Assembly: GCA_964016885.1 (NCBI GenBank) | Contig: OZ024742.1 | Span: forward strand, 360,654,001 to 360,718,000 | Direction: 5' to 3' | Length of the DNA stretch: 64,000 nt | From: Eledone cirrhosa | Lineage: Eukaryota | Shown here: one piece after another, positions 3,410-63,445 of the stretch | Numbering within the stretch: the stretch's first letter is position 1 | Layout of the letters: each line of letters starts with the position of its first letter | The notes under the pieces: generated by a model | The model's input: only the letters and a program-made list of their open reading frames with translations | What the model was told of the DNA's origin: nothing | The model's database searches: none | Position numbers and translations under genes: made by a program

Positions 3410-6352
3410 ATAGACGTGTGTATGTGTGTCTATATACAGACATGTGTATGTGTTTCTATATACAGACATGTGTATGTGTTTCTATATACAGACGTGTGTA
3501 TGTTTCTATATACAGACATGTGTATGTGTTTCTATATACAGACGTGTGTATGTTTCTATATACAGACATGTGTATGTGTTTCTATATACAGACATGTGTA
3601 TGTGTTTCTATATACAGACATGTGTATGTGTTTCTATATACAGACATGTGTATGTGTTTCTATATACAGACATGTGTGTGTTTCTATATACAGACATGTG
3701 TATGTGTGTCTATATACAGACGTGTGTATGTGAATCTATATACAGACGTGTGTATGTGAATCTATATACAGACGTGTGTATGTGTGTCTATATACAGACG
3801 TGTGTATGTGAATCTATATACAGACGTGTGTATGTGTGTCTATATACAGACGTGTGTATGTGTGTCTATATACAGACGTGTGTATGTTTCTATATACAGA
3901 CGTGTGTATGTTTCTATATACAGACGTGTGTATATGTTTCTATATACAGACGTGTGTATATGTGTCTATATACAGACGTGTGTATATGTGTCTATATACA
4001 GACGTGTGTATGTGTGTCTATATACAGACGTGTGTATGTGTGTCTATATACAGACGTGTGTATGTGTTTCTTTATACAGACGTGTGTATGTGTGTCTATA
4101 TACAGACGTGTGTATGTGTGTCTATATACAGACGTGTGTATGTGTGTCTATATACAGACGTGTGTATATGTCTATATACAGACGTGTGTATGTGTTTCTA
4201 TGTACAGACATGTGTATGTGTTTCTATATACAGACGTGTGTATGTGTGTCTATATACAGACGTGTATATGTTTCGATATACAGACGTGTGTATGTGTGTC
4301 TATATACAGACGTGTGTATGTGTGTCTATATACAGACGTGTGTATGTGTGTCTATATACAGACGTGTGTATGTGTGTCTATATACAGACATGTGTATGTG
4401 TGTCTATATACAGACGTGTGTATGTTTCTATATACAGACGTGTGTATGTGTGTCTATATACAGACGTGTGTATGTGTTTCTATATACAGACGTGTGTATG
4501 TGTTTCTATATACAGACGTGTGTATGTGTGTCTATATACAGACGTGTGTATGTGTTTCTATATACAGACGTGTGTATGTGTTTCTATATACAGACGTGTG
4601 TATGTATGTCTATATACAGACGTGTGTATGTTTCTATATACAGACGTGTGTATGTGTGTCTATATACAGACGTGTGTATGTTTCTATATACAGACGTGTG
4701 TATGTTTCTATATACAGACGTGTGTATGTTTCTATATACAGACGTGTGTGTGTTTCTATATACAGACATGTGTGTGTTTCTATATACAGACATGTGTGTG
4801 TTTCTATATACAGACATGTGTGTTTCTATATACAGACATGTGTGTGTTTCTATATACAGACATGTGTGTGTTTCTATATACAGACGTGTGTATGTGTTTA
4901 TATATACAGACGTGTGTATGTGTTTATATATACAGACGTGTGTATGTGTGTCTATATACAGACATGTGTGTGTGTTTCTATATACAGACATGTGTGTGTT
5001 TCTATATACAGACATGTGTGTTTTTCTATATACAGACATGTGTATGTGTTTCTATATACAGACGTGTGTATGTTTCTATATACAGACGTGTGTATGTGTT
5101 TCTATATACAGACGTGTGTATGTTTCTATATACAGACGTGTGTATGTTTCTATATACAGACATGTGTATGTGTTTCTATATACAGACGTGTGTTTGTGTG
5201 TCTATGTATAGATGTGTGTAAGTATATATATACACACATATGTGTGTATGAACATGGGTGTGCGTGTGTATGGACGTGTGTGTGTCTTTGTAAAGACATG
5301 TATGACATTGTATAGACGTGTGTATGTGTCTGAATATACAAGCGTGTGTGTGTATACACGCGTGTTTCTGTATATAACGGACGTGTGTATATGTTTCTGT
5401 ATACACGCGTGTTTCTGTATATAACGGACGTATGTATATGTTTCTATATACAGACGTGTGTATGTGTTTCTATATACAGATGTGTGTATGTGTTTCTATA
5501 TACAGACATGAATATGTGTTTCTATATACAGACATGAATATGTGTTTCTATATACAGACGTGTGTATGTGTTTCTATATAGACGTGTGTATGTGTTTCTA
5601 TATACAGACGTGTGTATGTGTATCTATATACAGACGTGTGTATGTGTATCTATATACAGACGTGTGTATGTGTGTCTATATACAGACGTGTGTATGTGTG
5701 TCTATATACAGACGTGTGTATGTGTGTCTATATACAGACGTGTGTATGTGTGTCTATATACAGACATGTGTATGTGTGTCTATATACAGACATGTGTATG
5801 TGTGTCTATATACAGACGTGTGTATGTGTGTCTATATACAGACGTGTGTATGTGTGTCTATATACAGACGTGTGTATGTGTGTCTATATACAGACGTGTG
5901 TATGTGTCTATATACAGACGTGTGTATGTGTCTATATACAGACATGTGTATGTGTGTCTATATACAGACATGTGTATGTGTGTCTATATACAGACATGTG
6001 TATGTGTGTCTATATACAGACGTGTGTATGTGTGTCTATATACAGACGTGTGTATGTGTTTCTATATACAGACGTGTGTATGTGTGTCTATATACAGACA
6101 TGTGTATGTGTGTCTATATACAGACGTGTGTATGTGTGTCTATATACAGACGTGTGTATGTGTGTCTATATACAGACGTGTGTATGTGTGTCTATATACA
6201 GACGTGTGTATGTGTGTCTATATACAGACATGTGGATGTGTGTCTATATACAGACATGTGTATGTGTTTCTATATACAGACATGTGTATGTGTGTCTATA
6301 TACAGACGTGTGTATGTGTGTCTATATACAGACGTGTGTATGTGTTTACAGA
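3410..6352. repeat. 26-bp minisatellite (TGTGTATGTGTGTCTATATACAGACG, with 24-bp variants)
   Basis: Direct tandem repetition; the 26-aa periodicity of the spurious ORFs equals 3 x 26 bp. Interrupted at ~5190-5440. Confidence 0.95.
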
Positions 6353-9829: not shown

Positions 9830-9980
9830 ATATATGTATGTCACAAGTGTAGTGTTTGTACCAGAATTTTCAAGTCGCTGGCTGGACTAAAAAGTCACAC
9901 TCGTTCAGCGCATCGGTGGGGGTTCTCCTACATGGATATAAAGTAGTGGCCGTACACGAAAAAAAGGTGGCAGCCACCAT
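9830..9980 (+). mobile_element. 5'-truncated LINE (RTE-like) 3' end encoding a C2H2-like finger
   Basis: HKCSVCTRIFKSLAGLKSHTRSAH, then a short 3' UTR ending GTGGCAGCCACC(AT)n. Flanked by a duplicated TATATATAGCATGTATTACATGTATA (~9756 and ~9980). Confidence 0.65.
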
Positions 9981-10368: not shown

Positions 10369-13300
10369 GTCTATATATAATTAGTTTAAGTTACTACATG
10401 GTAATATAACAGTGAGACCAGTCGATATATAATTAGTTTAAGTTACTACATGGTAATATAACAGTGAGACCAGTTGATATATAATTAGTTTAAGTTACTA
10501 CATGGTGATATATAACAGTGAAACCAGTCGATATATAATTAGTTTAAGTTACTACATGGTAATATATAACAGTGAAACCAGTCGATATATAATTAGTTAA
10601 AGTTACTACATGGTAATATATAACAGTGAAACCAGTCGATATATAATTAGTTTAAGTTACTACATGGTAATATATAACAGTGAAACCAGTCGATATATAA
10701 TTAGTTTAAGTTACTACATGGTAATATATAACAGTGAAACCAGTTGATATATAATTAGTTTAAGTTACTACATGGTAATATATAACAGTGAGACCAGTTG
10801 ATATATAATTAGTTTAAGTTACTACATGGTAATATAACAGTGAAACCAGTCGATATATAATTAGTTAAAGTTACTACATGGTAATATATAACAGTGAAAC
10901 CAGTTGATATATAATTAGTTTAAGTTACTACATGGTAATATATAACAGTGAGACCAGTTGATATATAATTAGTTAAAGTTACTACATGGTAATATATAAC
11001 AGTGAAACCAGTTGATATATAATTAGTTAAAGTTACTACATGGTGATATATAACAGTGAAACCAGTTGATATATAATTAGTTAAAGTTACTACATGGTAA
11101 TATATAACAGTGAAACCAGTCGATATATAATTAGTTTAAGTTACTACATGGTAATATATAACAGTGAAACCAGTTGATATATAATTAGTTAAAGTTACTA
11201 CATGGTGATATATAACAGTGAAACCAGTTGATATATAATTAGTTAAAGTTACTACATGGTAATATATAACAGTGAAACCAGTCGATATATAATTAGTTTA
11301 AGTTACTACATGGTAATATATAACAGTGAAACCAGTTGATATATAATTAGTTAAAGTTACTACATGGTAATATATAACAGTGAGACCAGTTGATATATAA
11401 TTAGTTAAAGTTACTACATGGTAATATATAACAGTGAAACCAGTTGATATATAATTAGTTAAAGTTACTACATGGTGATATATAACAGTGAAACCAGTCG
11501 ATATATAATTAGTTAAAGTTACTACATGGTAATATATAACAGTGAAACCAGTCGATATATAATTAGTTTAAGTTACTACATGGTAATATATAACAGTGAA
11601 ACCAGTTGATATATAATTAGTTAAAGTTACTACATGGTAATATATAACAGTGAGACCAGTTGATATATAATTAGTTAAAGTTACTACATGGTAATATATA
11701 ACAGTGAAACCAGTTGATATATAATTAGTTAAAGTTACTACATGGTGATATATAACAGTGAAACCAGTTGATATATAATTAGTTAAAGTTACTACATGGT
11801 AATATATAACAGTGAAACCAGTTGATATATAATTAGTTAAAGTTACTACATGGTAATATATAACAGTGAAACCAGTCGATATATAATTAGTTTAAGTTAC
11901 TACATGGTAATATATAACAGTGAAACCAGTTGATATATAATTAGTTTAAGTTACTACATGGTAATATATAACAGTAAAACCAGTTGATATATAATTAGTT
12001 TAAGTTACTACATGGTAATATATAACAGTGAAACCAGTTGATATATAATTAGTTTAAGTTACTACATGGTAATATATAACAGTGAAACCATTTGATATAT
12101 AATTAGTTAAAGTTACTACATGGTAATATATAACAGTGAAACCAGTCGATATATAATTAGTTTAAGTTACTACATGGTAATATATAACAGTGAAACCAGT
12201 TGATATATAATTAGTTTAAGTTACTACATGGTAATATATAACAGTGAAACCAGTTGATATATAATTAGTTTAAGTTACTACATGGTAATATATAACAGTG
12301 AAACCAGTCGATATATAATTAGTTTAAGTTACTACATGGTAATATATAACAGTAAAACCAGTTGATATATAATTAGTTTAAGTTACTACATGGTGATATA
12401 TAACAGTGAAACCAGTTGATATATAATTAGTTTAAGTTACTACATGGTAATATAACAGTGAAACCAGTCGATATATAATTAGTTTAAGTTACTACATGGT
12501 AATATAACAGTGAGACCAGTCGATATATAATTAGTTTAAGTTACTACATGGTAATATAACAGTGAGACCAGTTGATATATAATTAGTTTAAGTTACTACA
12601 TGGTAATATAACAGTGAAACCAGTCGATATATAATTAGTTAAAGTTACTACATGGTAATATATAACAGTGAAACCAGTTGATATATAATTAGTTTAAGTT
12701 ACTACATGGTAATATATAACAGTGAGACCAGTTGATATATAATTAGTTAAAGTTACTACATGGTAATATATAACAGTGAAACCAGTTGATATATAATTAG
12801 TTAAAGTTACTACATGGTGATATATAACAGTGAAACCAGTTGATATATAATTAGTTAAAGTTACTACATGGTAATATATAACAGTGAAACCAGTCGATAT
12901 ATAATTAGTTTAAGTTACTACATGGTAATATATAACAGTGAAACCAGTTGATATATAATTAGTTAAAGTTACTACATGGTGATATATAACAGTGAAACCA
13001 GTTGATATATAATTAGTTAAAGTTACTACATGGTAATATATAACAGTGAAACCAGTCGATATATAATTAGTTTAAGTTACTACATGGTAATATATAACAG
13101 TGAAACCAGTTGATATATAATTAGTTAAAGTTACTACATGGTAATATATAACAGTGAGACCAGTTGATATATAATTAGTTAAAGTTACTACATGGTAATA
13201 TATAACAGTGAAACCAGTTGATATATAATTAGTTAAAGTTACTACATGGTGATATATAACAGTGAAACCAGTCGATATATAATTAGTTAAAGTTACTACA

Positions 13301-15323
13301 TGGTAATATATAACAGTGAAACCAGTCGATATATAATTAGTTTAAGTTACTACATGGTAATATATAACAGTAAAACCAGTTGATATATAATTAGTTTAAG
13401 TTACTACATGGTAATATATAACAGTGAAACCAGTCGATATATAATTAGTTAAAGTTACTACATGGTAATATATAACAGTGAAACCAGTCGATATATAATT
13501 AGTTAAAGTTACTACATGGTAATATATAACAGTGAAACCAGTCGATATATAATTAGTTTAAGTTACTACATGGTGATATATAACAGTGAAACCAGTTGAT
13601 ATATAATTAGTTAAAGTTACTACATGGTAATATATAACAGTGAAACCAGTCGATATATAATTAGTTAAAGTTACTACATGGTAATATATAACAGTGAAAC
13701 CAGTCGATATATAATTAGTTTAAGTTACTACATGGTGATATATAACAGTGAAACCAGTTGATATATAATTAGTTAAAGTTACTACATGGTAATATATAAC
13801 AGTGAAACCAGTCGATATATAATTAGTTAAAGTTACTACATGGTAATATATAACAGTGAAACCAGTCGATATATAATTAGTTTAAGTTACTACATGGTAA
13901 TATATAACAGTGAGACCAGTCTATATATAATTAGTTAAAGTTACTACATGGTAATATATAACAGTGAGACCAGTTGATATATAATTAGTTTAAGTTACTA
14001 CATGGTAATATATAACAGTGAAACCAGTCGATATATAATAAGTTAAAGTTACTACATGGTAATATATAACAGTGAGACCAGTCGATATATAATTAGTTAA
14101 AGTTACTACATGGTAATATATAACAGTGAGACCAGTCGATATATAATTAGTTAAAGTTACTACATGGTAATATATAACAGTGAAACCAGTCTATATATAA
14201 TTAGTTAAAGTTACTACATGGTAATATATAACAGTGAAACCAGTCGATATATAATTAGTTTAAGTTACTACATGGTAATATATAACAGTGAAACCAGTTG
14301 ATATATAATTAGTTAAAGTTACTACATGGTAATATATAACAGTGAAACCAGTTGATATATAATAAGTTAAAGTTACTACATGGTAATATATAACAGTGAG
14401 ACCAGTTGATATATAATTAGTTAAAGTTACTACATGGTGATATATAACAGTGAAACCAGTTGATATATAATTAGTTAAAGTTACTACATGGTAATATATA
14501 ACAGTGAAACCAGTTGATATATAATTAGTTTAAGTTACTACATGGTAATATATAACAGTGAGACCAGTTGATATATAATTAGTTAAAGTTACTACATGGT
14601 GATATATAACAGTGAAACCAGTTGATATATAATTAGTTTAAGTTACTACATGGTAATATATAACAGTGAAACCAGTTGATATATAATTAGTTTAAGTTAC
14701 TACATGGTAATATATAACAGTGAGACCAGTTGATATATAATTAGTTTAAGTTACTACATGGTAATATATAACAGTGAAACCAGTTGATATATAATTAGTT
14801 TAAGTTACTACATGGTAATATATAACAGTGAAACCAGTTGATATATAATTAGTTTAAGTTACTACATGGTAATATATAACAGTGAGACCAGTTGATATAT
14901 AATTAGTTTAAGTTACTACATGGTAATATATAACAGTGAAACCAGTTGATATATAATTAGTTTAAGTTACTACATGGTAATATATAACAGTGAAACCAGT
15001 CGATATATAATTAGTTAAAGTTACTACATGGTAATATATAACAGTGAAACCAGTCGATATATAATTAGTTTAAGTTACTACATGGTAATATATAACAGTG
15101 AAACCAGTTGATATATAATTAGTTTAAGTTACTACATGGTAATATATAACAGTGAAACCAGTTGATATATAATTAGTTAAAGTTACTACATGGTAATATA
15201 TAACAGTGAAACCAGTTGATATATAATAAGTTAAAGTTACTACATGGTAATATATAACAGTGAGACCAGTTGATATATAATTAGTTAAAGTTACTACATG
15301 GTAATATATAACAGTGAAACCAG
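10369..15323. repeat. 54-bp AT-rich satellite, ~92 copies (GTYGATATATAATTAGTTWAAGTTACTACATGGTRATATATAACAGTGARACCA)
   Basis: The period was measured directly (GTCGAT at 10581 and 10635). Some units are 52-bp variants. Confidence 0.97.
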
Positions 15324-18699: not shown

Positions 18700-20045
18700 G
18701 CATACCACCACCATTACACCACCACCACCACAGTATCTATTACTAATATTACCATCAAATAGACACCACTAATACCACTGTCATTAACACCACCACCACT
18801 ACTACCCAAGCTACCACCAATACCACCATTACTACTGTCACCACCATTACTATTACCACCACCACACCACAACTACCACACACCAATACCACCACCACCA
18901 CACTACCATCACCACCACCACACCACAAAACCACTACAACACCATCACCACCACACCACCACCAACACCATTACCACCACCACACCACCACCACACCACC
19001 ACCAACACAACACCACCACCACACCACCACACTACCATCACCACACCACACCACCACACTACCATCACCACACCACACCACCACACTACCATCACCATAC
19101 CACACAACACCACCACACTACCATCACCACACCACCAACACCACAACCACCACATCACCACACCACCACCACCACACCACTACCACCACCAGCACAACCA
19201 CACCACTACCAGCACCAGCACCACCACACCACCATCACCACCACACCACCATCACCACCACACCACCATCACCACCACACCACCACCACCACCACCACCA
19301 CACCACTACCACCACCAGCACCACACCACCACCACACCACACCACCACCACACCAACACCACCACCACACCACACCACACCACAACCACACCACACCACA
19401 CCACCACCACCCAACACCACCACCACCACCACCACACCATACCACCACCACCCAACACCACCACCACCACCCAACACCACCACCACCACCCAACACCACC
19501 ACGACCACTCAACACCACCACAACCACCACCACACCACGACCACCACCACACCACCACCACCACACCACCACACCACCACACCACACCACCACCACCACC
19601 ACTCAACACCACCACCACCACCACACCAATACCACCACCACCACCACACCACACCACGACCACCACCACACCACGACCACCACCACACCACCACACCACC
19701 ACACCACACCACCACCACCACCACACCAATACCACCACCACCACCACACCACCACACCACACCACCACCACCACTCAACACCACCACCACACCACCACCA
19801 CACCACCACACCACCACCACCACCACACCACCACCACACCACACCACACCACACCACACCACACCACCACTACCCAACACCACCACCCCACACCACCACC
19901 ACCCAACACCACCACACCACACCACACCACCACCACACCACCACACCACCACCACCCAACACCACCACCACCACTCAACACCACCACCACCACACCACAC
20001 CACACCACCACCACCCAACACCACCACCACCACTCAACACCACCA
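18700..20045. repeat. (CAC/CACCA)n low-complexity array
   Basis: Visible mosaic of CAC and CACCA. Confidence 0.95.
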
Positions 20046-20137
20046 GACCCTAAAGTTCTGACTCAATATATATATGTCTTTCTGTTGTTCTTGTTGTTGT
20101 TGATGTGACCATTAAAGTTGTCATTGTTGTTGTTGTT

Positions 20138-21703
20138 GTCACTATGCTGGTCTTGTTGTTGTTGTCACTATGCTGGTCTTGTTGTTGTAGTTGTTGTTGT
20201 CACTCTGCTGGTCTTGTTGTTGTAGTCACTATGCTGGTCTTGTTGTAGTTGTTGTCACTATGCTGGTCTTGTTGTAGTTGTTGTCACTATGCTGGTCTTG
20301 TTGTTGTTGTTGTTGTCACTATGCTGGTCTTGTAGTTGTTGTTGTCACTCTGCTGGTCTTGTTGTAGTTGTTGTCACTATGCTGGTCTTGTTGTTGTTGT
20401 TGTTGTCACTATGCTGGTCTTGTAGTTGTTGTTGTCACTCTGCTGGTCTTGTTGTTGTGGTTGTTGTTGTCACTCTGCTGGTCTTGTTGTTGTGGTTGTT
20501 GTTGTCACTCTGCTGGTCTTGTTGTTGTGGTTGTTGTTGTCACTCTGCTGGTCTTGTTGTTGTAGTTGTTGTTGTCACTCTGCTGGTCTTGTTGTTGTTG
20601 TTGTCACTATGCTGGTCTTGTTGTTGTAGTTGTTGTTGTCACTATGCTGGTCTTGTTGTTGTTGTAGTTGTTGTCACTCTGCTGGTCTTGTTGTTGTTGT
20701 TGTTGTTGTCACTATGCTGGTCTTGTTGTTGTTGTCACTCTGCTGGTCTTGTTGTTGTTGTTGTTGTTGTCACTGCTGGTCTTGTTGTTGTTGTTGTCAC
20801 TCTGCTGGTCTTGTTGTTGTTGTTGTCACTCTGCTGGTCTTGTTGTTGTAGTTGTTGTCACTATGCTGGTCTTGTTGTTGTTGTCACTATGCTGGTCTTG
20901 TTGTTGTTGTTGTCACTATGCTGGTCTTGTTGTTGTTGTTGTCACTCTACTGGTCTTGTTGTTGTTGTTGTTGTCACTATGCTGGTCTTGTTGTTGTTGT
21001 TGTTGTCACTCTGCTGGTCTTGTTGTTGTAGTTGTTGTCACTATGCTGGTCTTGTTGTTGTTGTTGTTGTCACTATGCTGGTCTTGTTGTTGTTGTTGTC
21101 ACTCTGCTGGTCTTGTTGTTGTAGTTGTTGTTGTCACTATGCTGGTCTTGTTGTTGTTGTTGTCACTCTGCTGGTCTTGTTGTTGTTGTTGTTGTTGTCA
21201 CTATGCTGGTCTTGTTGTTGTAGTTGTTGTCACTATGCTGGTGTTGTTGTTGTTGTTGTTGTCACTCTGCTGGTCTTGTTGTAGTTGTTGTTGTTGTTGT
21301 TGTCACTCTGCTGGTCTTGTTGTTGTTGTTGTCACTATGCTGGTCTTGTTGTTGTTGTTGTCACTCTGCTGGTCTTGTTGTTGTTGTTGTCACTCTGCTG
21401 GTGTTGTTGTTGTTGTCACTATGCTGGTGTTGTTGTTGTTGTTGTCACTCTGCTGGTCTTGTTGTTGTAGTTGTTGTTGTCACTCTGCTGGTCTTGTTGT
21501 TGTTGTCACTCTGCTGGTGTTGTTGTTGTTGTCACTATGCTGGTGTTGTTGTTGTTGTTGTCACTCTGCTGGTCTTGTTGTTGTAGTTGTTGTTGTCACT
21601 CTGCTGGTCTTGTTGTTGTTGTTGTTGTTGTCACTATGCTGGTCTTGTTGTTGTAGTTGTTGTCACTATGCTGGTCTTGTTGTTGTTGTTGTTGTTGTCA
21701 CTA
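20138..21703. repeat. Compound minisatellite: constant GTCACTMTGCTGGTCTT core plus a variable (GTT)n/GTA spacer
   Basis: The core recurs roughly every 26-41 bp; only the spacer length varies. Confidence 0.95.
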
Positions 21704-21767
21704 TTACTTTGATCGTCAGAATTGATGCAGTTGTTATTTTAGTCACCATGATCGTAGATGTTTTTCG

Positions 21768-22477
21768 TTGTAGTAGTAGTAGTAGTTGTTGTAGTAGTAG
21801 TAGTTGTTGTAGTAGATGTTTTTGTAGTAGTAGTTGTTGTAGTAGTAGTTGTTGTAGTAGTTTTTATAGTAGTAGTAGTTGTTGTAGTAGATGTTTTTGT
21901 AGTAGTAGTTGTTGTAGTAGTTGTTGTAGTAGTTGTTTTTGTAGTAGTAGTAGTTGTAGTAGTAGTTGTTGTAGTAGTTTTTATAGTAGTAGTAGTTGTT
22001 GTAGTAGATGTTTTTGTAGTAGTAGTAGTTTTTGTAGTAGTAGTAGTAGTAGTTTTTGTAGTAGTAGTAGATGTTTTTGTAGTAGTAGTAGTAGTAGTTT
22101 TTGTAGTAGTAGTAGTAGTAGTTGTTGTAGTAGATGTTTTTGTAGTAGTAGTAGCAGTAGTAGTAGTAGTTGTAGTAGATGTTTTTGTAGTAGTAGTTGT
22201 AGTAGTACTAGTAGTTGTAGATGTTGTTGTAGTAGATGTAGTAGTAGTAGTAGTAGTTGTAGTAGTAGTAGTTGTTGTAGTAGTAGTAGTAGTTGTTGTA
22301 GTTGTAGTAGATGTTTTTGTAGTAGTAGTACTAGTAGTTGTAGTAGATGTTTTTGTTGTAGTAGTAGTACTAGTAGTTGTAGTAGATGTTGTAGTAGTAG
22401 TTGTTGTAGTAGTAGTAGTTGTTGTAGTAGTAGTTGTTGTAGTAGATGTTTTTGTTGTAGTAGTAGTAGTTGTTGTA
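21768..22477. repeat. (GTA/GTT)n compound microsatellite with GATGTTTTT interruptions
   Basis: Visible trinucleotide mosaic. Confidence 0.95.
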
Positions 22478-22856
22478 AATGAGTCAGTTATTCATTAAAG
22501 TCTCACTGACAAGTCTGTCTAAATTAGTTTACATACTAGCAATTGTAATAGCATTACTAAAGCCTAACTTAGTCACTCTATTGTGTAACATCCTTACAGA
22601 ATTCCATCTATTCACATATCATTGCTCACTAGAAACAATACTACTTTCACTACTAATTGCTACACAGAAACACAGAAACGTTCTATCTCTCCATCTACTT
22701 CTCTAACTTCCTCTCTACTTATATATATAATATATTTAAAAGTTAAACAAGGTTCAATGAATACATCAAAGAATGAGTTTTACAATAGATTGGAAGCACT
22801 CAACAGCAAGGTTTTCCAGAGTTATTAATATTAACTAAAAATATTAACAAAATATT

Positions 22857-23104
22857 AATATTAACAAAATAGATATTCTTGTGATCAATTATATTTTATT
22901 AGACATATTTCAGAGGTACTGAGTTAAGTTAAGATTTAGTCATGGTAGTACCATGACTAAATCTTAACCATCTAATATGTCAGGGTATGTCATGTATCAT
23001 TTTATTTTATCTGATGAGGACGTACTGTTCAACTTAACTCAGTACCTCTGAAATATGTATAATAAAATATAATTGGTCACAAGAATATCTATTTTGTTAA
23101 TATT
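22857..23104. mobile_element. Nested fold-back, probable Penelope-like element (pLTR) remnant
   Basis: 74-bp inverted arms 22857-22930 / 23031-23104 with 2 mismatches. An inner perfect 20-bp hairpin lies at 22928-22968, and a hammerhead core overlaps the right arm. Confidence 0.75.
22999..23073 (+). ncRNA. Minimal type I hammerhead ribozyme (Penelope/retrozyme type)
   Basis: Stem I ATTTTATTTTAT/ATAAAATATAAT, CTGATGA at 23011-23017, stem II GGACGTACTG/CAGTACCTCT, GAAA at 23050-23053, minimal stem III ATA-TG-TAT, and cleavage triplet AUA (23059-23061). Confidence 0.7.
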
Positions 23105-23124
23105 TTTTTGAATTAATATATAAT

Positions 23125-23460
23125 GGAGGCACATGGCTTAGTGGTTAGAGCATTGTCCTTGCAATCGAAAGGTTGTGAGTTCAATTCTCAGACCGGGTGA
23201 TGTGTTGTTTCCTTGAGCAAGACACTTTATTTCACATTGCTCCAGTTTACTCAGCTGTAGAAATGAGATGATAGGGACTGGGGTCCCTATCATTCCACTG
23301 CAGAGTGGTCGTGGAGGTGCCACGGCAAAAAAGCACCCAGCACTCACTGTAAATGAGGTAGGCGTTAGGAAGGGCATCCAGCTGTAGAAATCAAGCCAGA
23401 ATCAGTTCCCGTCCCACCCTTGCAAGCAGGGAAAAGCGGACGTAAAAATGATGATGATGA
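23125..23460 (+). mobile_element. tRNA-derived SINE family B (MetaSINE-like core, RTE-derived tail)
   Basis: A-box TGGCTTAGTGG, B-box GAGTTCAATTC, core CCTTGAGCAAGACACTT, and tail CCCTTGCAAGCAGGGAAAAGCGGACGTAAAA(ATG)n. A near-identical copy is at 32305. Confidence 0.9.
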
Positions 23461-23483
23461 TATATATATAATATATATATATA

Positions 23484-23703
23484 TCATCATCATCGTTTAA
23501 CGTCCATTTTCCACGCTAGCATGAGTTAGACGGGAGTTGTCCCAATTTGAGTCAAGGTTGGTCGGGTGACCGTGTCTCGCTCATATAGGACTATCTGGCA
23601 GGTTTTCTACGGCTGGATGCCCTTCTTAACACCAACCACATTTACAGTGTGGGACTGGGAACTTTTTACCGTGTTACCTACACGGCCACATTACAGCGTG
23701 GAC
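23484..23703 (-). mobile_element. SINE family B 3' fragment
   Basis: (CAT)n..TTTTCCACGCTAGCATG..CTGGATGCCCTTCTTAACACCAACCAC matches the reverse complement of the family B tail. Confidence 0.75.
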
Positions 23704-23767
23704 TGTATGTATGTATGTATGTATGTATCAAAACAAATGCCGCAGTACATGGAAAGAATATATTAGT

Positions 23768-23830
23768 TTAACGCTTGAAATAGCAGGAAGAGGGTCTTAA
23801 TGTTGCGGGCGCTAGTCCTTCACCAGAAGA
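23768..23830 (-). ncRNA. Degenerate minimal hammerhead motif, copy 2 of a Penelope-like pLTR
   Basis: The minus strand reads TCTT-CTGGTGA-AGGACTAGCGCCC-GCAA-CATTA-AGA. It shares the TTAACGCTTGA flank with 24125. Confidence 0.45.
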
Positions 23831-23899
23831 AAGAATGAGTGTGTATGTATATATATATATATGTATATATATATATAAAAGTAGAAGGGGTATTTAATT

Positions 23900-23996
23900 T
23901 GTTGGAAATGAAATGTTTTGCTCAAGAACACAACACACAACCCAGTCCAGGAATCAAACCCACAACATTATGATTGTTAGTCCAACACCCTTACCA
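23900..23996 (-). mobile_element. SINE head fragment (family B-like)
   Basis: TTGCTCAAGAACACAACAC..GGAATCAAACCCACAAC..CCCTTACCAC is the reverse complement of the tRNA head and core. Confidence 0.65.
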
Positions 23997-24124
23997 CACA
24001 CACACACAAACACACACACACAAACACACCACACACCACACACCACACACACACGCACACGCACACGCACACGCACACACGCACACACGCGCGCCGCCGC
24101 CGTATATGGAAGGGATATATTAGG

Positions 24125-24450
24125 TTAACGCTTGATATAACACGAAGAGAATGTTAACGTTTCGGATGCTAGTCCTTCATCATGAGAAATAAGATAGATT
24201 GGGGGGACGGGCGGGATGGAATTGGAAAAAATGTCTTTAGATATTGAAGGTACTAGGGTGGGAGTGAAACATAGATGGGTGAGAAGAAGGTGGTGTAAGA
24301 AGATTGTAGTAGAGGAAAAGTGGTAGAGAGTCGTGGAATATTTAAATGTAAGAAGCAAAGAAAATTTCAATGATACGAAAGATTTCCTGGTGGAAGTTCA
24401 GGTGTACTCCGGGTTGGTATCCAGTTTCAGGGTGAAAATCCAATTAGAAA
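24125..24450 (-). mobile_element. Penelope-like 3' remnant with a degenerate hammerhead (24151-24187)
   Basis: The minus strand reads ATGATGA-AGGA-CTAGCA-TCC-GAAA-CGTT-A. An upstream frameshifted NWIFTLK/TGYQPGVHLNF resembles the WIxxLxTxxPxGLN end of Penelope GIY-YIG endonucleases. Confidence 0.55.
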
Positions 24451-24464
24451 ATCCAACAAATTTA

Positions 24465-24950
24465 TAATCATCATCACTGTTTAACGTCTATTTTTGCATG
24501 CTTGTATTTGCATAGGTTAGGTAGGTTGCCCACGTCATGAGAAAAGTCTGGACAGCTGGTCATGTCATTCCTTGCTCAGACAGAACTGTATTTGGCTGGG
24601 AGTTTTTACAGCTGGATTCCCTTCCTAATACCAACCATGTTTACAGTGTGGAACTGGATGGCACTGTTATGAAGAGGGACAAGCCAGTTGGCCACGCTGT
24701 ACCCTGCTCACAGCAGAACCATAGTTTGGGAGCTGGGTGGTCCCAGTATAAGGGATGTCTGAATATATATACACACATCATCATCATCATCATCACCGTT
24801 TAATGACCATTTTTCCATGTTAGCATGGGTTAGATGAGTTGTCCAGATGTGAGCCAAGCCAGATCAAATGACCATGTCTTACTAACGCAGGACTGATTTC
24901 TATGGCTGGATGCTAGTCGTAACACCAATCACATTTACAGTGTGTGCTGG
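24465..24950 (-). mobile_element. Two SINE family B 3' fragments
   Basis: (CAT)n tails at ~24468 and ~24778, each followed by CATGCTTG/CATGTTAGCATGGG and CTGGAT..ACCAA..TTTACAGTGTG. Confidence 0.7.
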
Positions 24951-24998
24951 GTCCTTATATACACACATACACACATATATATGTATATATATATATGT

Positions 24999-25181
24999 AT
25001 GCCAGTAGAGGAAGACCACGAAAGACATGGGCGGAGGTGGTGAGAGCAGACTTCAGATCGCTGAAGCTCACGGTGGAGATGACGAAGGACTGTGAGAAGT
25101 GGAGAGATGCTGTGCTGAATAGAACCCGTCCACCCTTGCAAGCAGGGAAAAGTGGACGTAAAATGATGATGATGATGATGA
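24999..25181 (+). mobile_element. RTE-LINE 3' end (5'-truncated)
   Basis: SRGRPRKTWAEVVRADFRSLKLTVEMTKDCEKWRDAVL is an RTE ORF C-terminal motif, followed by a (GAT)n tail. Confidence 0.85.
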
Positions 25182-25744
25182 TATATGTATGTATAGTAAG
25201 ACTCACTATTTAGCCTTGATAAATATATATGTATGTATGTGTGTGTGTGTGTGTATATGTACATATGTATATATAGTGTGGTGTGTGTATTTATATATAT
25301 ATGTACACATGTATATATAGTGTGGTGTGTATATATGTATATGTGTGTGCATGTGTATGTGTGTACCGTCTTCACTCGGTAGTCAGCAGGGAACTTGCCA
25401 CACTCTCCTCATCCATGATTTGATCGAACTTATGTTCACAGATATCACGGACTTGTTTCCTCTCTTTCTGTTGCAATACCATCTCTGTTTGTTTACATGT
25501 CTCGCTCGCTCCACCCTATTCTACGTGTCCCAATAACTTTTGTTAGTTATTGCTCGCACCAGCCAGAGGTATATCATCTTTAATGCGAAGAAATACCAAT
25601 GACAGCTGGAAGATAACTGATGACGGACGCCCTATCTTCTCGCTCTAAATTTATTCATATGTATCCCATTTGCAACAATGCAGCACACCATTTTTCATAT
25701 ATATATACACGTGTATGTGTGTATATATATATATATATCTTCTA

Positions 25745-26089
25745 TCTTCTATATATATAAAAGCGAGGATGTCTGTGTGTCTGTGTACAACTTTGGATAC
25801 CTAAGGCTTTTACAATTACCAACTGAATTTGACCAAATTTTCTGTGCACGTTGCGCAGGTCGCTAAGATGGTCACATCACAAACATTTTTCAAATCGACC
25901 CACGTTGAGCAATAAAAAATCGATATCAAAATTATCGGTAGCAAAATTGATGTAAGGGAGATAACCAACTTTATTGACAGAAATATAAACATCAGATTCA
26001 TTTGAAGATAAATCACTAATATTATCGTTTGTTTCTTGTTTATTCTTTGTTGCATTTCAAACCCCGGGCAACGCCGGGTAAATCTGCTA

Positions 26090-35277: not shown

Positions 35278-35532
35278 TTAACCCTCTTTATATCAAACCG
35301 CCTAAAATTGTCACTGTTTTTATAAGAAACTTTTTTATTTAAAGTGTTTATATTCATCTAAAGCCCCTCCATCCTCATTTTATCTAAGTACCTTTTTATG
35401 TTCCAAGCATCATCTTAATATTCAGCAAACTAGTTAGATTACTAAATCTGTCCAAATTCTGGGTTATTTTCAACATTTTGTGAAAAACAAAGTCAATGTC
35501 TTTCATTAGAAATATGGTAATGAAAGGGTTAA
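35278..35532 (+). mobile_element. TTAA MITE family 1 (seed of the 48-bp satellite)
   Basis: TTAA-CCCTCT left end, with a body shared with 2620-2948 (TTTAAAGTGTTTATATT, TTATGTTCCAA.CATCA). Right end TGTCTTTCATTAGAAATATGGTAATGAAAGGG-TTAA. Confidence 0.8.
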
Positions 35533-38500
35533 TGACATAGACAGTGGCTTTCATTAGAAATATGGTAATGAAAGGGTTAATGACATAGACAGTGGTTTTC
35601 ATTAGAAATATGGTAATGAAAGGGTTAATGACATAGGGAGTGTCTTTCATTAGATATATGGTAATGAAAGGATTAATGACATACACAGTGGCTTTCATTA
35701 GATATATGGTAATGAAAGGGTTAATGACATAGACAGTGTCTTTCATTAGATATATTGTAATGAAAGTGTTAATGACATAGACAGTGTCTTTCACTAGACA
35801 TATGGTTATGAAAGGGTTAATGACATAGGTAGTGTCTTTCATTAGAAATATGGTAATGAAAGGGTTAATGACATAGGTAGTGTCTTTCATTAGACATATG
35901 GTCATGAAAGGGTTAATGACATAGGTAGTGTATTTCATTAGAAATATGGTAATGAAAGGGTTAATGACATAGACAGTGTCTTTCATTAGAAATATGGTAA
36001 TGAAGGGTTAATGACATAGGGAGTGTCTTTCATTAGATATATAGTAATGAAAGGGTTAATGACATAGACAGTGTCTTTCATTAGAAATATGGTAATGAAG
36101 GGTTAATGACATAAACAGCGTCTTTCATTAGAAATATGGTAATGAAAGGGTTAATGACCTAGACAGTGTCTTTCATTAGAAATATGGTAATGAAAGGATT
36201 AATGACACAGACAGTGTCTTTCATTAGATATATGGTAATGAAGGGTTAATGACATAAACAGCGTCTTTCATTAGAAATATGGTAATGAAAGGGTTAATGA
36301 CCTAGACAGTGTCTTTCATTAGAAATATGGTAATGTAAGGGTTAATGACATAGGGGGTGTCTTTCATTAGATATATGGTAATGTAATGGTTAATGACATA
36401 GGGAGTGTCTTTCATTATAAATATGGTAATGAAAGGGTTAATGACATAGGTAGTGTCTTTCATTAGAAATATGGTAATGTAAGGGTTAATGACATAGACA
36501 GTGCCTTTCATTAGAAATATGGTAATGAAAGGGTTAATGACCTAGACAGTGTCTTTCATTAGAAATATGGTAATGTAAGGGTTAATGACATAGGGAGTGT
36601 CTTTCATTAGATATATGGTAATGTAATGGTTAATGACATAGACAGTGTCTTGCATTAGAAATATGGTAATAAAAGGGTTAATGACATGGGTAGTGTCTTT
36701 CATTAGAAATATGGTAATAAAAGGGTTAATGACATAGGGAGTGTCTTTCATTATAAATATGGTAATAAAAGGGTTAATGACATGGGTAGTGTCTTTCATT
36801 AGATATATGGTAATGAAAGGGTTAATGACATAGACAGTGGCTTTCATTAGATATATGGTAATGAAAGGGTTAATGACGTAGGTAGTGTCTTTCATTAGAA
36901 ATATGGTAATGAAAGGGTTAATGACGTAGGGAGTGTCTTTTATTAGAAATATGGTAATGAAAGGGTTAATGACATAGGGAGTGTCTTTCATTATAAATAT
37001 GGTAATAAAAGGGTTAATGACATAGGGAGTGTCTTTCATTATAAATATGGTAATAAAAGGGTTAATGACATGGGTAGTGTCTTTCATTAGATATATGGTA
37101 ATGAAAGGGTTAATGACATAGACAGTGTCTTTCATTAGATATATGGTAATGAAAGGGTTAATGACATAGACAGTGTCTTTCATTAGATATATGGTAATGA
37201 AAGGGTTAATGACAGGTAGTGTCTTTCATTAGATATATGGTAATGAAAGGGTTAATGACATAGACAGTGTCTTTCAGTAGATATATGGTAATGAAAGGAT
37301 TAATGACATAGACAGTGTCTTTCATTAGATATATGGTAATGAAAGGGTTAATGACATAGGGAGTGTCTTTCAGTAGATATATGGTAATGAAAGGGTTAAT
37401 GACAGGTAGTGTCTTTCATTAGATATATGGTAATGAAAGGGTTAATGACATAGACAGTGGCTTTCATTAGAAATATGGTAATGAAAGGGTTAATGACATA
37501 GGGAGTGTCTTTCATTAGATATATGGTAATGAAAGGGTTAATGACATAGACAGTGGCTTTCATTAGAAATATGGTAATGAAAGGGTTAATGACATAGGGA
37601 GTGTCTTTCATTAGAAATATGGTAATGAAAGGATTAATGACATAGACAGTGTCTTTCATTAGATATATGGTAATGAAAGGATTAATGACATACACAGTGG
37701 CTTTCATTAGACATATGGTAATGAAAGGGTTAATGACATAGACAGTGTCTTTCATTAGATATATTGTAATGAAAGTGTTAATGACATAGACAGTGTCTTT
37801 CATTATAAATATGGTAATGAAAGGGTTAATGACATAGGTAGTGTCTTTCATTAGATATATGGTAATGAAAGGGTTAATGACATAGACAGTGTCTTTCATT
37901 AGATATATGGTAATGAAAGGGTTAATGACATAGACAGTGTCTTTCATTAGATATATTGTAATGAAAGTGTTAATGACATAGACAGTGTCTTTCATTATAA
38001 ATATGGTAATGAAAGGGTTAATGACATAGGTAGTGTCTTTCAGTAGAAATATGGTAATGAAAGGGTTAATGACATAGACAGTGTCTTTCATTAGATATAT
38101 GGTAATGAAAGGGTTAATGACATAGGGAGTGTCTTTCATTAGAAATATGGTAATGAAAGGGTTAATGACAGGTAGTGTCTTTCATTAGATATATGGTAAT
38201 GAAGGGTTAATGACATAGGTAGTGTCTTTCAGTAGAAATATGGTAATGAAAGGATTAATGACATAGACAGTGTCTTTCATTAGATATATGGTAATGTAAT
38301 GGTTAATGACATAGACAGTGTCTTTCATTAGAAATATGGTAATGAAAGGGTTAATGACATAAACAGTGTCTTTCATTAGAAATATGGTAATGAAAGGGTT
38401 AATGACATAGGTAGTGTCTTTCAGTAGAAATATGGTAATGAAAGGATTAATGACATAGACAGTGTCTTTCATTAGATATATGGTAATGTAATGGTTAATG

Positions 38501-41500
38501 ACATAGACAGTGTCTTTCATTATAAATATGGTAATGAAAGGGTTAATGACATAGACAGTGTCTTTCATTAGATATATGGTAATGTAAGGGTTAATGACAT
38601 AGGGAGTATGTTTCATTAGAAATATGGTAGTGAAAGGGTTAATGACATAGACAGTGTCTTTCATTAGATATATTGTAATGAAAGGGTTAATGACATAGAC
38701 AGTGTCTTTCATTAGATATATGGTAATGAAAGGGTTAATGAAATAGGGAGTGTCTTTCAGTAGATATATGGTAATGAAAGGGTTAATGAAATAGGGAGTG
38801 TCTTTCATTAGAAATATGGTAATGAAAGGGTTAATGACATAGGCAGTGTCTTTCATTAGAAATATGGTAATGTAAGGGTTAATGACATAGGGAGTATGTT
38901 TCATTAGAAATATGGTAATGAAAGGGTTAATGACATAGGGAGTGTCTTTCATTAGATATATGGTAGTGAAAGGGTTAATGACATAGGGAGTGTCTTTCAT
39001 TAGATATATGGTAGTGAAAGGGTTAATGACATAGACAGTGTCTTTCATTAGAAATATGGTAATGTAAGGGTTAATGACATAGGGAGTATGTTTCATTAGA
39101 AATATGGTAATGAAAGGGTTAATGACATAGACAGTGTCTTTCATTAGAAATATGGTAATGTAAGGGTTAATGACATAGGGAGTGTCTTTCATTAGAAATA
39201 TGGTAATGAAAGGGTTAATGACATAGACAGTGTCTTTCATTAGAAATATGGTAATGTAAGGGTTAATGACATAGACAGTGTCTTTCATTAGAAATATGGT
39301 AATGTAAGGGTTAATGACATAGGGAGTGTCTTTCATTAGATATATGGTAATGAAAGGGTTAATGAAATAGGGAGTGTCTTTCAGTAGATATATGGTAATG
39401 AAAGGGTTAATGACATAGACAGTGTCTTTCATTAGATATATAGTAATGAAAGGGTTAATGAAATAGGGAGTGTCTTTCATTAGAAATATGGTAATGAAAG
39501 GGTTAATGACATAGACAGTGTCTTTCATTAGATATATGGTAATGAAAGGATTAATGACATAGGCAGTGTCTTTCATTAGAAATATGGTAATGAAAGGATT
39601 AATGACATAGGCAGTGTCTTTCATTAGAAATATGGTAATGAAAGGGTTAATGACATAGGTAGTGTCTTTCATTAGAAATATGGTAATGAAAGGGTTAATG
39701 ACATAAACAGTGTCTTTCATTAGAAATATGGTAATGAAAGGGTTAATGACATAGGCAGTGTCTTTCATTAGATATATGGTAATGAAAGGATTAATGACAT
39801 AGGCAGTGTCTTTCATTAGATATATAGTAATGAAAGGGTTAATGACATAAACAGTGTCTTTCATTAGAAATATGGTAATGAAAGGATTAATGACATAGGC
39901 AGTGTCTTTCATTAGATATATGGTAATGAAGGGTTAATGACATAGGTAGTGTCTTTCATTAGAAATATGGTAATGAAAGGGTTAATGACCTAGACAGTGT
40001 CTTTCAGTAGAAATATGGTAATGAAAGGGTTAATGACATAGGGAGTGTCTTTCAGTAGAAATATGGTAATGAAAGGGTTAATGACATACGCAGTGTCTTT
40101 CATTAGAAATATGGTAATGAAAGGGTTAATGACATAAACAGTGTCTTTCATTAGAAATATGGTAATGAAAGGGTTAATGACATAAACAGTGTCTTTCATT
40201 AGAAATATGGTAATGAAAGGGTTAATGACATAGGCAGTGTCTTTCATTAGATATATGGTAATGAAGGGTTAATGACATAGGTAGTGTCTTTCATTAGATA
40301 TATGGTAATGAAAGGGTTAATGACATAAACAGTGTCTTTCATTAGAAATATGGTAATGAAAGGGTTAATGAAATAGACAGTGTCTTTCATTAGAAATATG
40401 GTAATGAAGGGTTAATGACATAGGTAGTGTCTTTCATTAGATATATGGTAATGAAAGGGTTAATGAAATAGGGAGTGTCTTTCAGTAGATATATGGTAAT
40501 GAAAGGGTTAATGAAATAGGGAGTGTCTTTCAGTAGATATATGGTAATGAAAGGGTTAATGACCTAGACAGTGTCTTTCATTAGAAATATGGTAATGAAA
40601 GGGATAATGACATAGGGAGTGTCTTTCATTAGAAATATGGTAATGAAAGGGTTAATGACATAGGTAGTGTCTTTCATTAGAAATATGGTAATGAAAGGAT
40701 TAATGACATAGGGAGTGTCTTTCATTAGATATATGGTAATGAAAGGGTTAATGACATAGGGAGTGTCTTTCATTAGAAATATGGTAATGAAAGGGATAAT
40801 GACATAGGGAGTGTCTTTCATTAGAAATATGGTAATGTAAGGGTTAATGACATAGGGAGTGTCTTTCATTAGAAATATGGTAATGTAAGGGTTAATGACA
40901 TAAACAGTGTCTTTCATTAGAAATATGGTAATGAAAGGGTTAATGACATAGACAGTGTCTTTCATTAGAAATATGGTAATGTAAGGGTTAATGACATAGG
41001 GAGTGTCTTTCATTAGAAATATGGTAATGAAAGGGTTAATGACATAGGGAGTGTCTTTCATTAGAAATATGGTAATGAAAGGGTTAATGACATAGGTAGT
41101 GTCTTTCATTAGAAATATGGTAATGAAAGGGTTAATGACATAAACAGTGTCTTTCATTAGAAATATGGTAATGAAAGGGTTAATGACATAAACAGTGTCT
41201 TTCATTAGAAATATGGTAATGAAAGGGTTAATGACATAGGTAGTGTCTTTCATTAGATATATGGTAATGTAATGGTTAATGACATAGGCAGTGTCTTTCA
41301 TTAGAAATATGGTAATGAAAGGGTTAATGACCTAGACAGTGTCTTTCAGTAGAAATATGGTAATGAAAGGGTTAATGACATAGGGAGTGTCTTTCAGTAG
41401 AAATATGGTAATGAAAGGGTTAATGACATAGGTAGTGTCTTTCATTAGAAATATGGTAATGAAAGGGTTAATGACATAGGTAGTGTCTTTCATTAGAAAT

Positions 41501-62900: not shown

Positions 62901-63445
62901 ACCTCTCCCCCCACACACCATCTCTGAGACCCCACCAATGCCATCATCTCTAACACCCCCCCCCCCATCTCCACCCCCCCCCCCCCCAACATCCCTGAGA
63001 CCCCACCAATCCCATCATCTCTAACACCCCTCGCCCCACACACACCATCTCTGAGACCCCACCAATGCCAGCATCTCTACCCCCCCCCCCAAACCATCTC
63101 TGAGACCCCACCAATGCCATCATCTCTAACCCCCCCCCCCCACACCATCTCTAACACCCCCCACACCATCTCTGAGACCCCACCAATGCCATCATCTCTA
63201 ACACCCCCACCCACACACCATCTCTGAGACCCCACCAATGCCATCATCTCTAACCCCCCCCCCCCACACCATCTCTAGCACCCCCCACACCATCTCTGAG
63301 ACCCCACCTATGCCATCATCTCTAACACCGCTCCCCCCACACAACATCTCTGATACCCCACCAATGCCATCATCTCTAACACCTCTTCCCCCACACACCA
63401 TCTCTGAGACCCCACCAACGCTATCATCACAAACCCCCCCCCCCC
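56949..63445. repeat. C-rich ~54-bp minisatellite, ~120 copies (CACACCATCTCTGAGACCCCACCAATGCCATCATCTCTAACACCCCTCCCCCCA)
   Basis: Period 54 (ATCTCTGAGA at 56961 and 57015). Variation is concentrated in the C-tract. Confidence 0.97.

What the first reader, a model, noticed from the sequence alone, without database searches (positions are those of the whole stretch)
22857..23104. Near-intact minimal hammerhead ribozyme inside a nested double fold-back
Seen: CTGATGA (23011) and GAAA (23050) are joined by a 9/10-bp stem II and closed by an 11/12-bp stem I (22999-23010/23062-23073), with a tiny stem III (ATATGTAT) and an AUA cleavage triplet. The 3' half is duplicated in inverted orientation (74-bp arms, 2 mismatches) around a second perfect 20-bp hairpin. 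Established: Penelope-like elements and retrozymes carry such minimal type I hammerheads, which act as dimers through a palindromic stem III, and PLE insertions often have inverted ends. Inference: stem III derives from the palindrome ATACGTAT by CpG decay. In a + strand transcript the upstream antisense arm would sequester the ribozyme, giving a built-in OFF conformation, and would form long dsRNA that cephalopod ADARs could edit.
Basis: partly seen in the sequence, partly recalled or inferred. Interest (0 to 1): 0.75.

Follow-up and report, generated by a model that had tools for sequence, protein, structure and literature searches.

The report
Hydra-clade Penelope stub with hammerhead
This is a short, folded-back end piece of a known kind of jumping gene that has well over a thousand close copies in this genome; it carries a genuine hammerhead-ribozyme motif that likely serves the parent element, while in this copy it is predicted to be silenced debris rather than a regulatory switch.

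Summary
The motif and both fold-backs are real. They belong to a 390-bp insertion (22730-23119) in a (TA)n tract: the 5'-truncated 3' end of a Penelope-like element joined head-to-head to an inverted copy that lost 65 nt, so the 'nested double fold-back' is one palindrome. In 21 of 21 loci with the parent's endonuclease end, this hammerhead lies 1.8-3.1 kb downstream. The parent protein has the Hydra-clade motifs (DKT, CxCx5C, C-terminal GIY-YIG). A family pattern has 1,631 genomic matches and a broader hammerhead pattern 82,414 (controls 0 and 4). Helix II covaries at 9 of 9 pairs across related families. ATATGTAT is the family state (94 of 100 listed copies, ATACGTAT 0), so it is not CpG decay of this copy. 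The antisense arm is predicted to block the fold (+48 kcal/mol), but such arms are a routine insertion by-product; no transcription or editing evidence was obtained, and cleavage is untested. Extra: 13 of 15 newly fetched inverted pairs carry one long and one short end. Hydra elements with hammerheads are published for octopus, and this scan already reported the same architecture on other DNA of this genome.

The parts
22720..22729 (.). (TA)n target tract, left side
   Evidence: family copies end in (TA)n
22730..22836 (-). Inverted copy, 'long' 3' end: ~104-nt tail of the element (in full elements it runs on into the ORF start)
   Evidence: left arm read on - strand; L063, L069 junctions; tail 104 nt in L069; table 7 (loose TA ends at 22730)
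22837..22856 (-). Small local duplication within the inverted copy
   Evidence: (I19, D12)
22857..22927 (-). Inverted copy of the hammerhead's 3' half and downstream sequence (mirror of 23034-23104); lacks CUGAUGA, one private change at the mirror of 23059
22928..22947 (-). Inverted copy of the first 20 nt of the sense copy; 65 nt (mirror of 22969-23033) are missing between this and the previous part, at a 3-nt AAC microhomology
22949..23119 (+). Sense, 5'-truncated 3' end of a Hydra-clade Penelope-like element, ending at the 'short' end
   Evidence: two differences from the majority of 24 copies (23030, 23076)
22999..23073 (+). Minimal type I hammerhead motif: helix I 22999-23010/23062-23073, core CUGAUGA 23011-23017, helix II 23018-23027/23040-23049 with a C.C mismatch, GAA 23050-23052, self-complementary AUAUGUAU 23053-23060, predicted cut after A23061
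23120..23123 (.). Remnant of the TA tract, right side; a tRNA-like repeat follows
   Evidence: weak Rfam tRNA match 23134-23191

Best explanation
The locus is a 5'-truncated, head-to-head inverted insertion of the 3' end of a Hydra-clade Penelope-like retrotransposon in a (TA)n tract; its minimal hammerhead likely cuts the parent element's RNA as a dimer, and in this copy it is predicted to be an inactive passenger. Shown: the full element is about 4.4-4.5 kb (hammerhead + tail, then an ORF with RT, CxCx5C linker and GIY-YIG nuclease, then ~1.9 kb of AT-rich non-coding sequence, then the hammerhead again). Copies end at two fixed places, 55 and 159 nt past the predicted cut. Inverted pairs mostly carry one end of each kind. 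Inferred: in a partial-tandem transcript the 5' and 3' hammerheads pair through AUAUGUAU (six A-U pairs around a tandem U.G/G.U) to form helix III and cut slowly, probably with help from the element's protein. Because copies run past the cut site, the template copied is uncut there or circularised. The nuclease breaks both strands of (TA)n, reverse transcription starts from each DNA end at one of the two internal sites, and the two truncated cDNAs are joined at their 5' ends. A 65-nt microhomology deletion in the left arm, during or after insertion, produced the apparent second hairpin.
For: Family: 47 matches from 40 scored of 190 candidates, 30 loci at 97-99%; 1,631 exact pattern matches vs 0 control. 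Link to ORF: 21 of 21 loci with the endonuclease/3' UTR junction carry this hammerhead on the same strand 1.8-3.1 kb downstream (L032 and L056 were picked knowing this, the other 19 were not). L063 and L069 have hammerhead + tail directly before the ORF start. DKT is present in 2 of 21 loci (most are 5'-truncated), CxCx5C in 14 of 21, YIG/YIE in 16 of 21; these match the Hydra definition and, by eye, the published Hydra-1_Obim protein. Structure: 22 family representatives, 91.8% of cells paired, 17 of 21 pairs with two-sided changes, helix II 9 of 9, 0 of 500 shuffles reach the covariation score, slid controls 32-52% paired. Position 7 varies (T, C, A, G) as in active hammerheads. Core intact in 16 of 21 ORF-anchored copies by script. 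Ends: 11 of 11 head-to-head pairs mixed long/short (five arms re-read by eye), then 13 of 15 in a fresh set, 2 long/long, 0 short/short, p=0.003. Folding: forcing the hammerhead fold costs 48 kcal/mol with the left arm present, and 16 kcal/mol already when helix II has just been made. Literature: inverted 5'-truncated copies and a one-sided tail are standard for these elements; a lizard element cuts and extends both strands, starts at two internal sites, and has a protein-assisted hammerhead that is dispensable for insertion in vitro.
Against: No cleavage was measured. Even without the left arm the predicted probability of the helix I register is about 0.01, the AUAUGUAU self-duplex is only -2.2 kcal/mol, and free co-folding of two copies did not give the dimer fold. 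A review passage says AUA sites can be orders of magnitude slower than GUC or GUA (PMC3138052). The base of helix II is G.U rather than the G10.1-C11.1 pair typical of published minimal forms, although many published Hydra hammerheads also have U before GAA. Core and part of helices I and III were imposed by the patterns used to pick the aligned rows; only helix II is free of that bias, and relatedness alone can beat the shuffle control. The unit is longer than the <3 kb usual for Hydra. No intact full-length ORF was seen among the 21 loci. No tree was built. Pfam and PDB searches did not recognise the protein pieces. Two of the 15 fresh pairs are 5.5 and 8.5 kb apart and may be separate insertions, and one 'long' arm (L145) has only part of the tail.
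Confidence: 0.85

Rival explanations
1. The hammerhead-shaped motif is kept in these elements as a protein-binding or folding signal for reverse transcription, and it cuts rarely or never.
For: Weak all-A-U helix I, mis-registered monomer fold and weak dimer duplex. A slow AUA triplet is fixed in 99 of 100 listed copies. Genomic copies extend 55-159 nt past the cut. In the lizard element, core mutants still insert and no RNA ends map to the cut.
Against: The catalytic residues stay fixed while position 7 and all nine helix II pairs change across families (core partly imposed by selection). Helix III stays self-complementary. Minimal forms show some cleavage as dimers.
Confidence: 0.2
2. This copy is a host-used RNA switch: read-through on the + strand makes a long hairpin that holds the ribozyme off and is edited by ADAR.
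For: The hairpin is predicted to be very stable (-134 kcal/mol) and to exclude the ribozyme fold. One of the copy's private changes is A>G at 23076 in the paired arm. Another note of this scan reports edited Penelope hairpins elsewhere in this genome (not checked by me).
Against: Inverted pairs are routine: 15 were picked out of the first 100 listed matches. There is no partner hammerhead nearby for a dimer (one match in the window), so there is no predicted ON state. No convincing host exon among 15 of the window's 62 long frames scanned. One A>G change is not an editing signature, and rare changes in 24 copies show no A>G excess on the sense strand (4 A>G, 9 T>C, 6 G>A, 4 C>T).
Confidence: 0.04
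3. It is a non-autonomous retrozyme-like mini-element that replicates as a small RNA of its own.
For: Most close copies are short and have no ORF. Retrozymes carry type I hammerheads and derive from Penelope ends.
Against: 5' ends are scattered from -15 to beyond -1,500 and run continuously into the coding element. No tandem array at this locus.
Confidence: 0.05

Closest known systems
Hydra clade of C-terminal EN+ Penelope-like elements, including Hydra-1_Obim of Octopus bimaculoides (Craig et al. 2021, PMC8557442 / bioRxiv 10.1101/2021.04.23.441226; passages of the main text, supplement part 2 of 59 and supplement search hits read)
   Same: DKT motif, CxCx5C linker, C-terminal GIY-YIG, (TA)n target, hammerhead near the 3' end, inverted 5'-truncated copy and one-sided tail; many listed Hydra hammerheads also have U before GAA.
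   Different: A different family from Hydra-1_Obim (different hammerhead; unit ~4.4-4.5 kb vs 2,507 bp, owing to ~1.9 kb of non-coding 3' sequence). Tail of 104 nt vs the 30-40 bp described. AUA cut site, a C.C mismatch in helix II, and an 8-nt self-complementary helix III with tandem G.U.
Minimal type I hammerheads of metazoan Penelope-like elements (Cervera and de la Pena 2014, PMC4209133; parts 1-2 of 4 read)
   Same: Long helix II, poorly closed helix I, palindromic helix III, dispersed single motifs from truncated copies, and opposite-strand pairs 100-700 bp apart.
   Different: No extra base between positions 9 and 10.1 in the best-supported register, and G.U or A-U often replaces G10.1-C11.1. 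The genomic count here (82,414 for one pattern) is about nine times the largest figure in that paper (about 9,000 in Xenopus tropicalis), though the descriptors differ.
PAc (Poseidon of Anolis carolinensis) in vitro (Frangieh et al. 2024, PMC11167929; parts 1-2 of 4 read)
   Same: Two internal start sites that define a tail; both DNA strands cut and extended; AT-rich target; hammerhead close to the ORF start.
   Different: Poseidon clade. There the hammerhead overlaps the ORF start and the start sites are not homologous to the target. Here the cut is 213 nt before the ATG and both ends fall in TA-rich sequence like the target.
Metazoan non-LTR retrozymes (Li, Clavereau and Pollet 2026, 10.64898/2026.07.22.740005, part 1 of 5 read; PMC7761336 passages)
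   Same: Type I hammerhead with dimer logic; related to Penelope ends.
   Different: Retrozymes are non-coding tandem repeats; this is a truncated end of a coding element with no tandem array.

Membership tests
Type I (minimal) hammerhead ribozyme | Core C3 U4 G5 A6 N7 G8 A9 ... G12 A13 A14 A15.1 ... U16.1 H17 | tested here: met
   intact in 16 of 21 ORF-anchored copies by script
Type I (minimal) hammerhead ribozyme | Helices I and II supported by compensatory changes | tested here: met
   helix II 9 of 9 pairs and helix I 6 of 8 pairs with two-sided changes (helix I partly imposed by selection)
Type I (minimal) hammerhead ribozyme | Palindromic helix III region allowing a dimer | tested here: met
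   ATATATAT, ATGCGCAT, ATACGTAT, ATATGTAT across families; 94.3% of cells paired; duplex weak for this family
Type I (minimal) hammerhead ribozyme | G10.1-C11.1 pair and an extra base after A9 (typical of published minimal forms) | tested here: not met
   G.U at this pair in 99 of 100 listed copies; A-U 9, G.U 7, G-C 6 of 22 families. Typical rather than required; U before GAA is common in published Hydra motifs
Type I (minimal) hammerhead ribozyme | Match to an Rfam hammerhead model | tested here: not met
   none at E<=5 in 20000-26000
Type I (minimal) hammerhead ribozyme | Site-specific self-cleavage | not testable with these tools
   needs a bench assay
Hydra-clade Penelope-like element | Single ORF with RT followed by a C-terminal GIY-YIG nuclease | tested here: met
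   order RT - linker - YIG in broken natural copies L063, L069, L073, L032; no intact ORF seen
Hydra-clade Penelope-like element | DKG changed to DKT | tested here: met
   L063 and L069; 2 of 21 loci, most others do not reach this far 5'
Hydra-clade Penelope-like element | CxCx5C linker | tested here: met
   14 of 21 loci
Hydra-clade Penelope-like element | No CCHH motif in the nuclease | tested here: met
   by eye only: nuclease text follows the Hydra rows, not the Neptune rows, of the published alignment
Hydra-clade Penelope-like element | Insertion into (TA)n; hammerhead in the terminal repeat | tested here: met
Hydra-clade Penelope-like element | Generally shorter than 3 kb | tested here: not met
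   hammerhead-to-hammerhead 4,436 nt (L069) and 4,491 nt (L063); a general tendency, not a diagnostic motif
Hydra-clade Penelope-like element | Placement in the Hydra branch of an RT tree | not tested
   published sequences were read but not used in a tree
Non-LTR retrozyme | Non-coding tandem repeats with a hammerhead in each unit | tested here: not met
   no tandem array at the locus; parent codes for RT and nuclease

The most novel reading that the evidence does not exclude
This genome carries more than 80,000 core-intact minimal hammerheads of one related group, far above published counts, built on an unusual design (AUA site, conserved C in a helix II mismatch, 8-nt dimer palindrome). Their Hydra-clade carriers integrate by priming reverse transcription from both ends of a double-strand break in (TA)n at two fixed internal sites, which is why inverted pairs get one long and one short end. 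That would make the long-open questions of how Penelope inverted ends form and what their hammerheads do testable on thousands of young natural copies.
Probability: 0.35. Interest if true: 0.6.

Novelty: new member of a known kind. Interest (0 to 1): 0.3.

Why it matters
As a locus it matters little: it is one of over a thousand stubs. As a family it offers a large, young, natural data set for two open points in Penelope biology: whether minimal hammerheads cut in vivo, and how inverted ends with a one-sided tail arise. The near-fixed long-plus-short pairing supports two-ended priming. The sheer number of perfect fold-backs could be a large source of double-stranded RNA in an animal with heavy RNA editing, but nothing here shows that this copy is transcribed.

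Tried and rejected
Rfam scan: no hammerhead, only hairpin-driven microRNA matches below their thresholds. Pfam and PDB did not recognise the RT or nuclease pieces; the assignment rests on motifs and the published alignment. RNA evidence: no RNA holder listed; the three runs laid were contigs of one sample, kind not on record, and say nothing on expression or editing. CpG decay of this copy rejected. An alternative register with a GUC cut, suggested by the C in the left arm, rejected: that C is private to the left arm. Host gene: 15 of 62 long frames scanned, only weak or repeat-driven matches; neighbouring windows were not examined. Target-site duplication could not be read inside (TA)n. Two other Penelope ORFs next to family copies (L033, L035) were set aside as different elements; one is 45% identical to the family RT. 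The twin small hairpins proposed in earlier notes: ACTC...GAGTGC follows the short end in 3 of 3 junction copies and a GCTC...GAGCGC counterpart follows the long end, but neither folds better than shuffles (z 0.26 and -0.75), so their role is untested. Lunse et al. 2017 (dimer cleavage) was not held; only its title was seen in a reference list. Literature searches for an octopus hammerhead census found none beyond Craig et al.; an octopus repeat annotation has no mention of ribozymes (PMC13282606, term search); subscription papers and bioRxiv supplements were not visible. Sequence look-up in the scan's own notes was blank.

Full report
Observation. All reported features are in the sequence: the core CTGATGA (23011) and GAAA (23050), helix II with 9 of 10 pairs, helix I with 11 of 12 pairs, ATATGTAT, the AUA triplet, 74-nt arms with two mismatches (23059, 23076) and a perfect 20-nt inverted repeat. 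Rfam has no hammerhead match here. The window lies on contig C3 of a 3.0-Gb genome. That the animal is an octopus-type cephalopod is my inference from likeness to published octopus elements, not a tool result.

It is a repeat. The 141-nt core region gave 47 matches from 40 scored of 190 candidates; the 30 fetched loci are 97-99% identical (three pairs of them are the two arms of one insertion). A 34-place family pattern has 1,631 exact matches against 0 for the reversed control. Copies end in (TA)n at one of two places and start at scattered 5' points.

Anatomy of this copy. The sense copy runs 22949-23119 and stops at the short end. It shares the first 20 nt with the sense copy, then skips 65 nt (22969-23033) at an AAC microhomology and resumes. 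So the two nested hairpins are one palindrome centred on 22948 with a deletion that removed the 5' half of the ribozyme from the left arm. The sense arm differs from the majority of 24 copies at two places, one shared with 3 copies and one private A>G.

The parent element. One locus (L032) had reverse-transcriptase and nuclease remnants about 2 kb upstream. I searched with the nuclease/3' UTR junction (41 matches from 40 scored of 1,280 candidates) and fetched 20 of them. All 21 loci, L032 included, carry this hammerhead on the same strand 1.8-3.1 kb downstream; two of the 21 were chosen knowing that. In L063 and L069 a hammerhead and tail also sit right before the ORF start, giving units of 4,491 and 4,436 nt. 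In L069 the predicted cut is 55 nt before the short end, 159 nt before the long end and 213 nt before the ATG. The protein pieces show DKT (2 of 21 loci), CxCx5C (14 of 21) and a C-terminal YIG nuclease (16 of 21). These are the diagnostic features of the Hydra clade (Craig et al. 2021, passages), whose supplement lists an Octopus bimaculoides member with a hammerhead. By eye the N-terminus, DKT region, RT motifs and nuclease follow the Hydra rows of their alignment. All copies seen are broken; no tree was made; Pfam and PDB gave nothing.

Is the hammerhead real? The genome holds many related families. A pattern with the core and the 3' strand of helix I has 82,414 matches against 4 controls; one with ATACRTAT has 1,234 against 3. 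I aligned the window, one sister-family copy and 20 of the 34 rows found, dropping near-duplicates by hand. On the named structure 91.8% of 461 cells pair, 17 of 21 pairs show two-sided changes, no shuffle of 500 reaches the covariation score, and slid controls pair at 32-52%. The core and parts of helices I and III were required by my patterns, so helix II (9 of 9 pairs covarying, never imposed on these 20 rows) is the clean evidence; relatedness can inflate the shuffle result. Position 7 is free, and a C at the helix II mismatch is invariant in 22 of 22. Among the 21 ORF-anchored copies the core is intact in 16 by script. The helix III octamer is ATATATAT, ATGCGCAT, ATACGTAT or ATATGTAT in most families, all self-complementary if G.U is allowed, which fits the dimer model of Cervera and de la Pena 2014 (parts 1-2 read).

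CpG decay. In the first 100 listed family copies, counted by eye, the loop is TG in 94, TA in 5, TC in 1 and CG in 0; position 11.1 is T in 99 and position 17 is A in 99. ATATGTAT was therefore in the master that spread, not a later decay of this copy. An older C-to-T change in the lineage is possible, since L134, a close relative, has ATACGTAT.

Can it cut? Predicted folding is unfavourable. Alone, helix II forms (p 0.99) but the helix I register does not (p 0.01), and the active fold is 4.4 kcal/mol above the best fold. The AUAUGUAU self-duplex is -2.2 kcal/mol against -10.5 for AUGCGCAU, and free co-folding did not give the dimer fold. A review passage calls AUA a slow site (PMC3138052). 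With the left arm present the active fold costs 48 kcal/mol, and 16 kcal/mol already when helix II has just been made. There is no second complete hammerhead of this pattern in the window. This copy is thus predicted to be silent. For the parent, slow, dimer- and probably protein-assisted cutting is the best guess, by analogy with the lizard element whose hammerhead needs the protein and is dispensable for insertion in vitro (Frangieh et al. 2024, parts 1-2 read).

How the fold-back arises. Inverted 5'-truncated copies and a one-sided tail are described as standard for these elements. Of 13 loci with both orientations, 2 were tail-to-tail and set aside; the other 11 each have one long and one short end, after I re-read five arms that my pattern had mis-called. 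As a fresh test I fetched 15 head-to-head pairs from the list (a 16th, tail-to-tail, was left out of the count): 13 are mixed, 2 long/long, none short/short, p=0.003 against independent ends. One long arm is incomplete and two pairs are 5.5 and 8.5 kb wide. The window follows the rule. This fits priming from both ends of a double-strand break at two internal sites, which is inferred, not shown.

OFF switch and editing. The predicted sequestration is real as thermodynamics, but it is a by-product shared by many copies. No convincing host exon was found among 15 of 62 long frames. The copy has one A>G change, and rare changes in 24 copies show no A>G excess on the sense strand.

Prior work. Hammerheads in Penelope ends, the Hydra clade and an octopus member are published. 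Earlier notes of this scan reached the same reading for other families in this genome, including the two ends and twin small hairpins behind them; I found the two motifs in this family but no folding signal above shuffles. Searches for a published count of octopus hammerheads found none, within the limits of the library.

Verdict. A new family of a known clade, and an ordinary truncated copy of it. Interest 0.3, carried by the family-level numbers and the long-plus-short rule rather than by this locus.

Noticed in passing
G000 genome-wide: 82,414 matches to one minimal-hammerhead pattern (control 4), about one per 36 kb; many listed matches come as close minus-then-plus pairs.
   Followed up: partly
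alignment A1, column 25 (window 23021): An unpaired C after the third pair of helix II is invariant in 22 of 22 family representatives, opposite C in most; possible tertiary or protein contact.
   Followed up: no
L069:1228-1437: A predicted 12-bp helix brackets the long end and the second small hairpin just before the ORF start.
   Followed up: no
L033:2844-6242: Two head-to-head copies of this family enclose 1.8 kb of a different Penelope-type element with its own RT and GIY-YIG remnants; L035 likewise joins a related RT (45% identical) directly to the family's last 420 nt. Possible template switching between elements.
   Followed up: partly
L031:8954-9400: A sister family (1,991 candidates) with a G10.1-C11.1 pair and ATATATAT sits as its own fold-back right behind a copy of this family; insertions pile up in the same TA tracts.
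   Followed up: partly
window 23125-23300: tRNA-like repeat (weak Rfam tRNA match 23134-23191) directly after the insertion; very high summed contig depth.
   Followed up: no
window 35497-55397, 56949-62967, 10373-15323, 3412-6345: Long minisatellite arrays (48 nt x 415, 54 nt x 111, 54 nt x 92, 26 nt x 115) make up over half of the window.
   Followed up: no
window 20124-22476: TTG/TAG-rich array; the 26-41-nt units shift frame each time, while 21739-22491 gives a 250-residue threonine-rich frame on the minus strand, probably chance.
   Followed up: no
window 9842-9916: A single C2H2 zinc-finger-like stretch (Pfam E 0.004, below cut-off) at the end of a low-complexity frame.
   Followed up: partly
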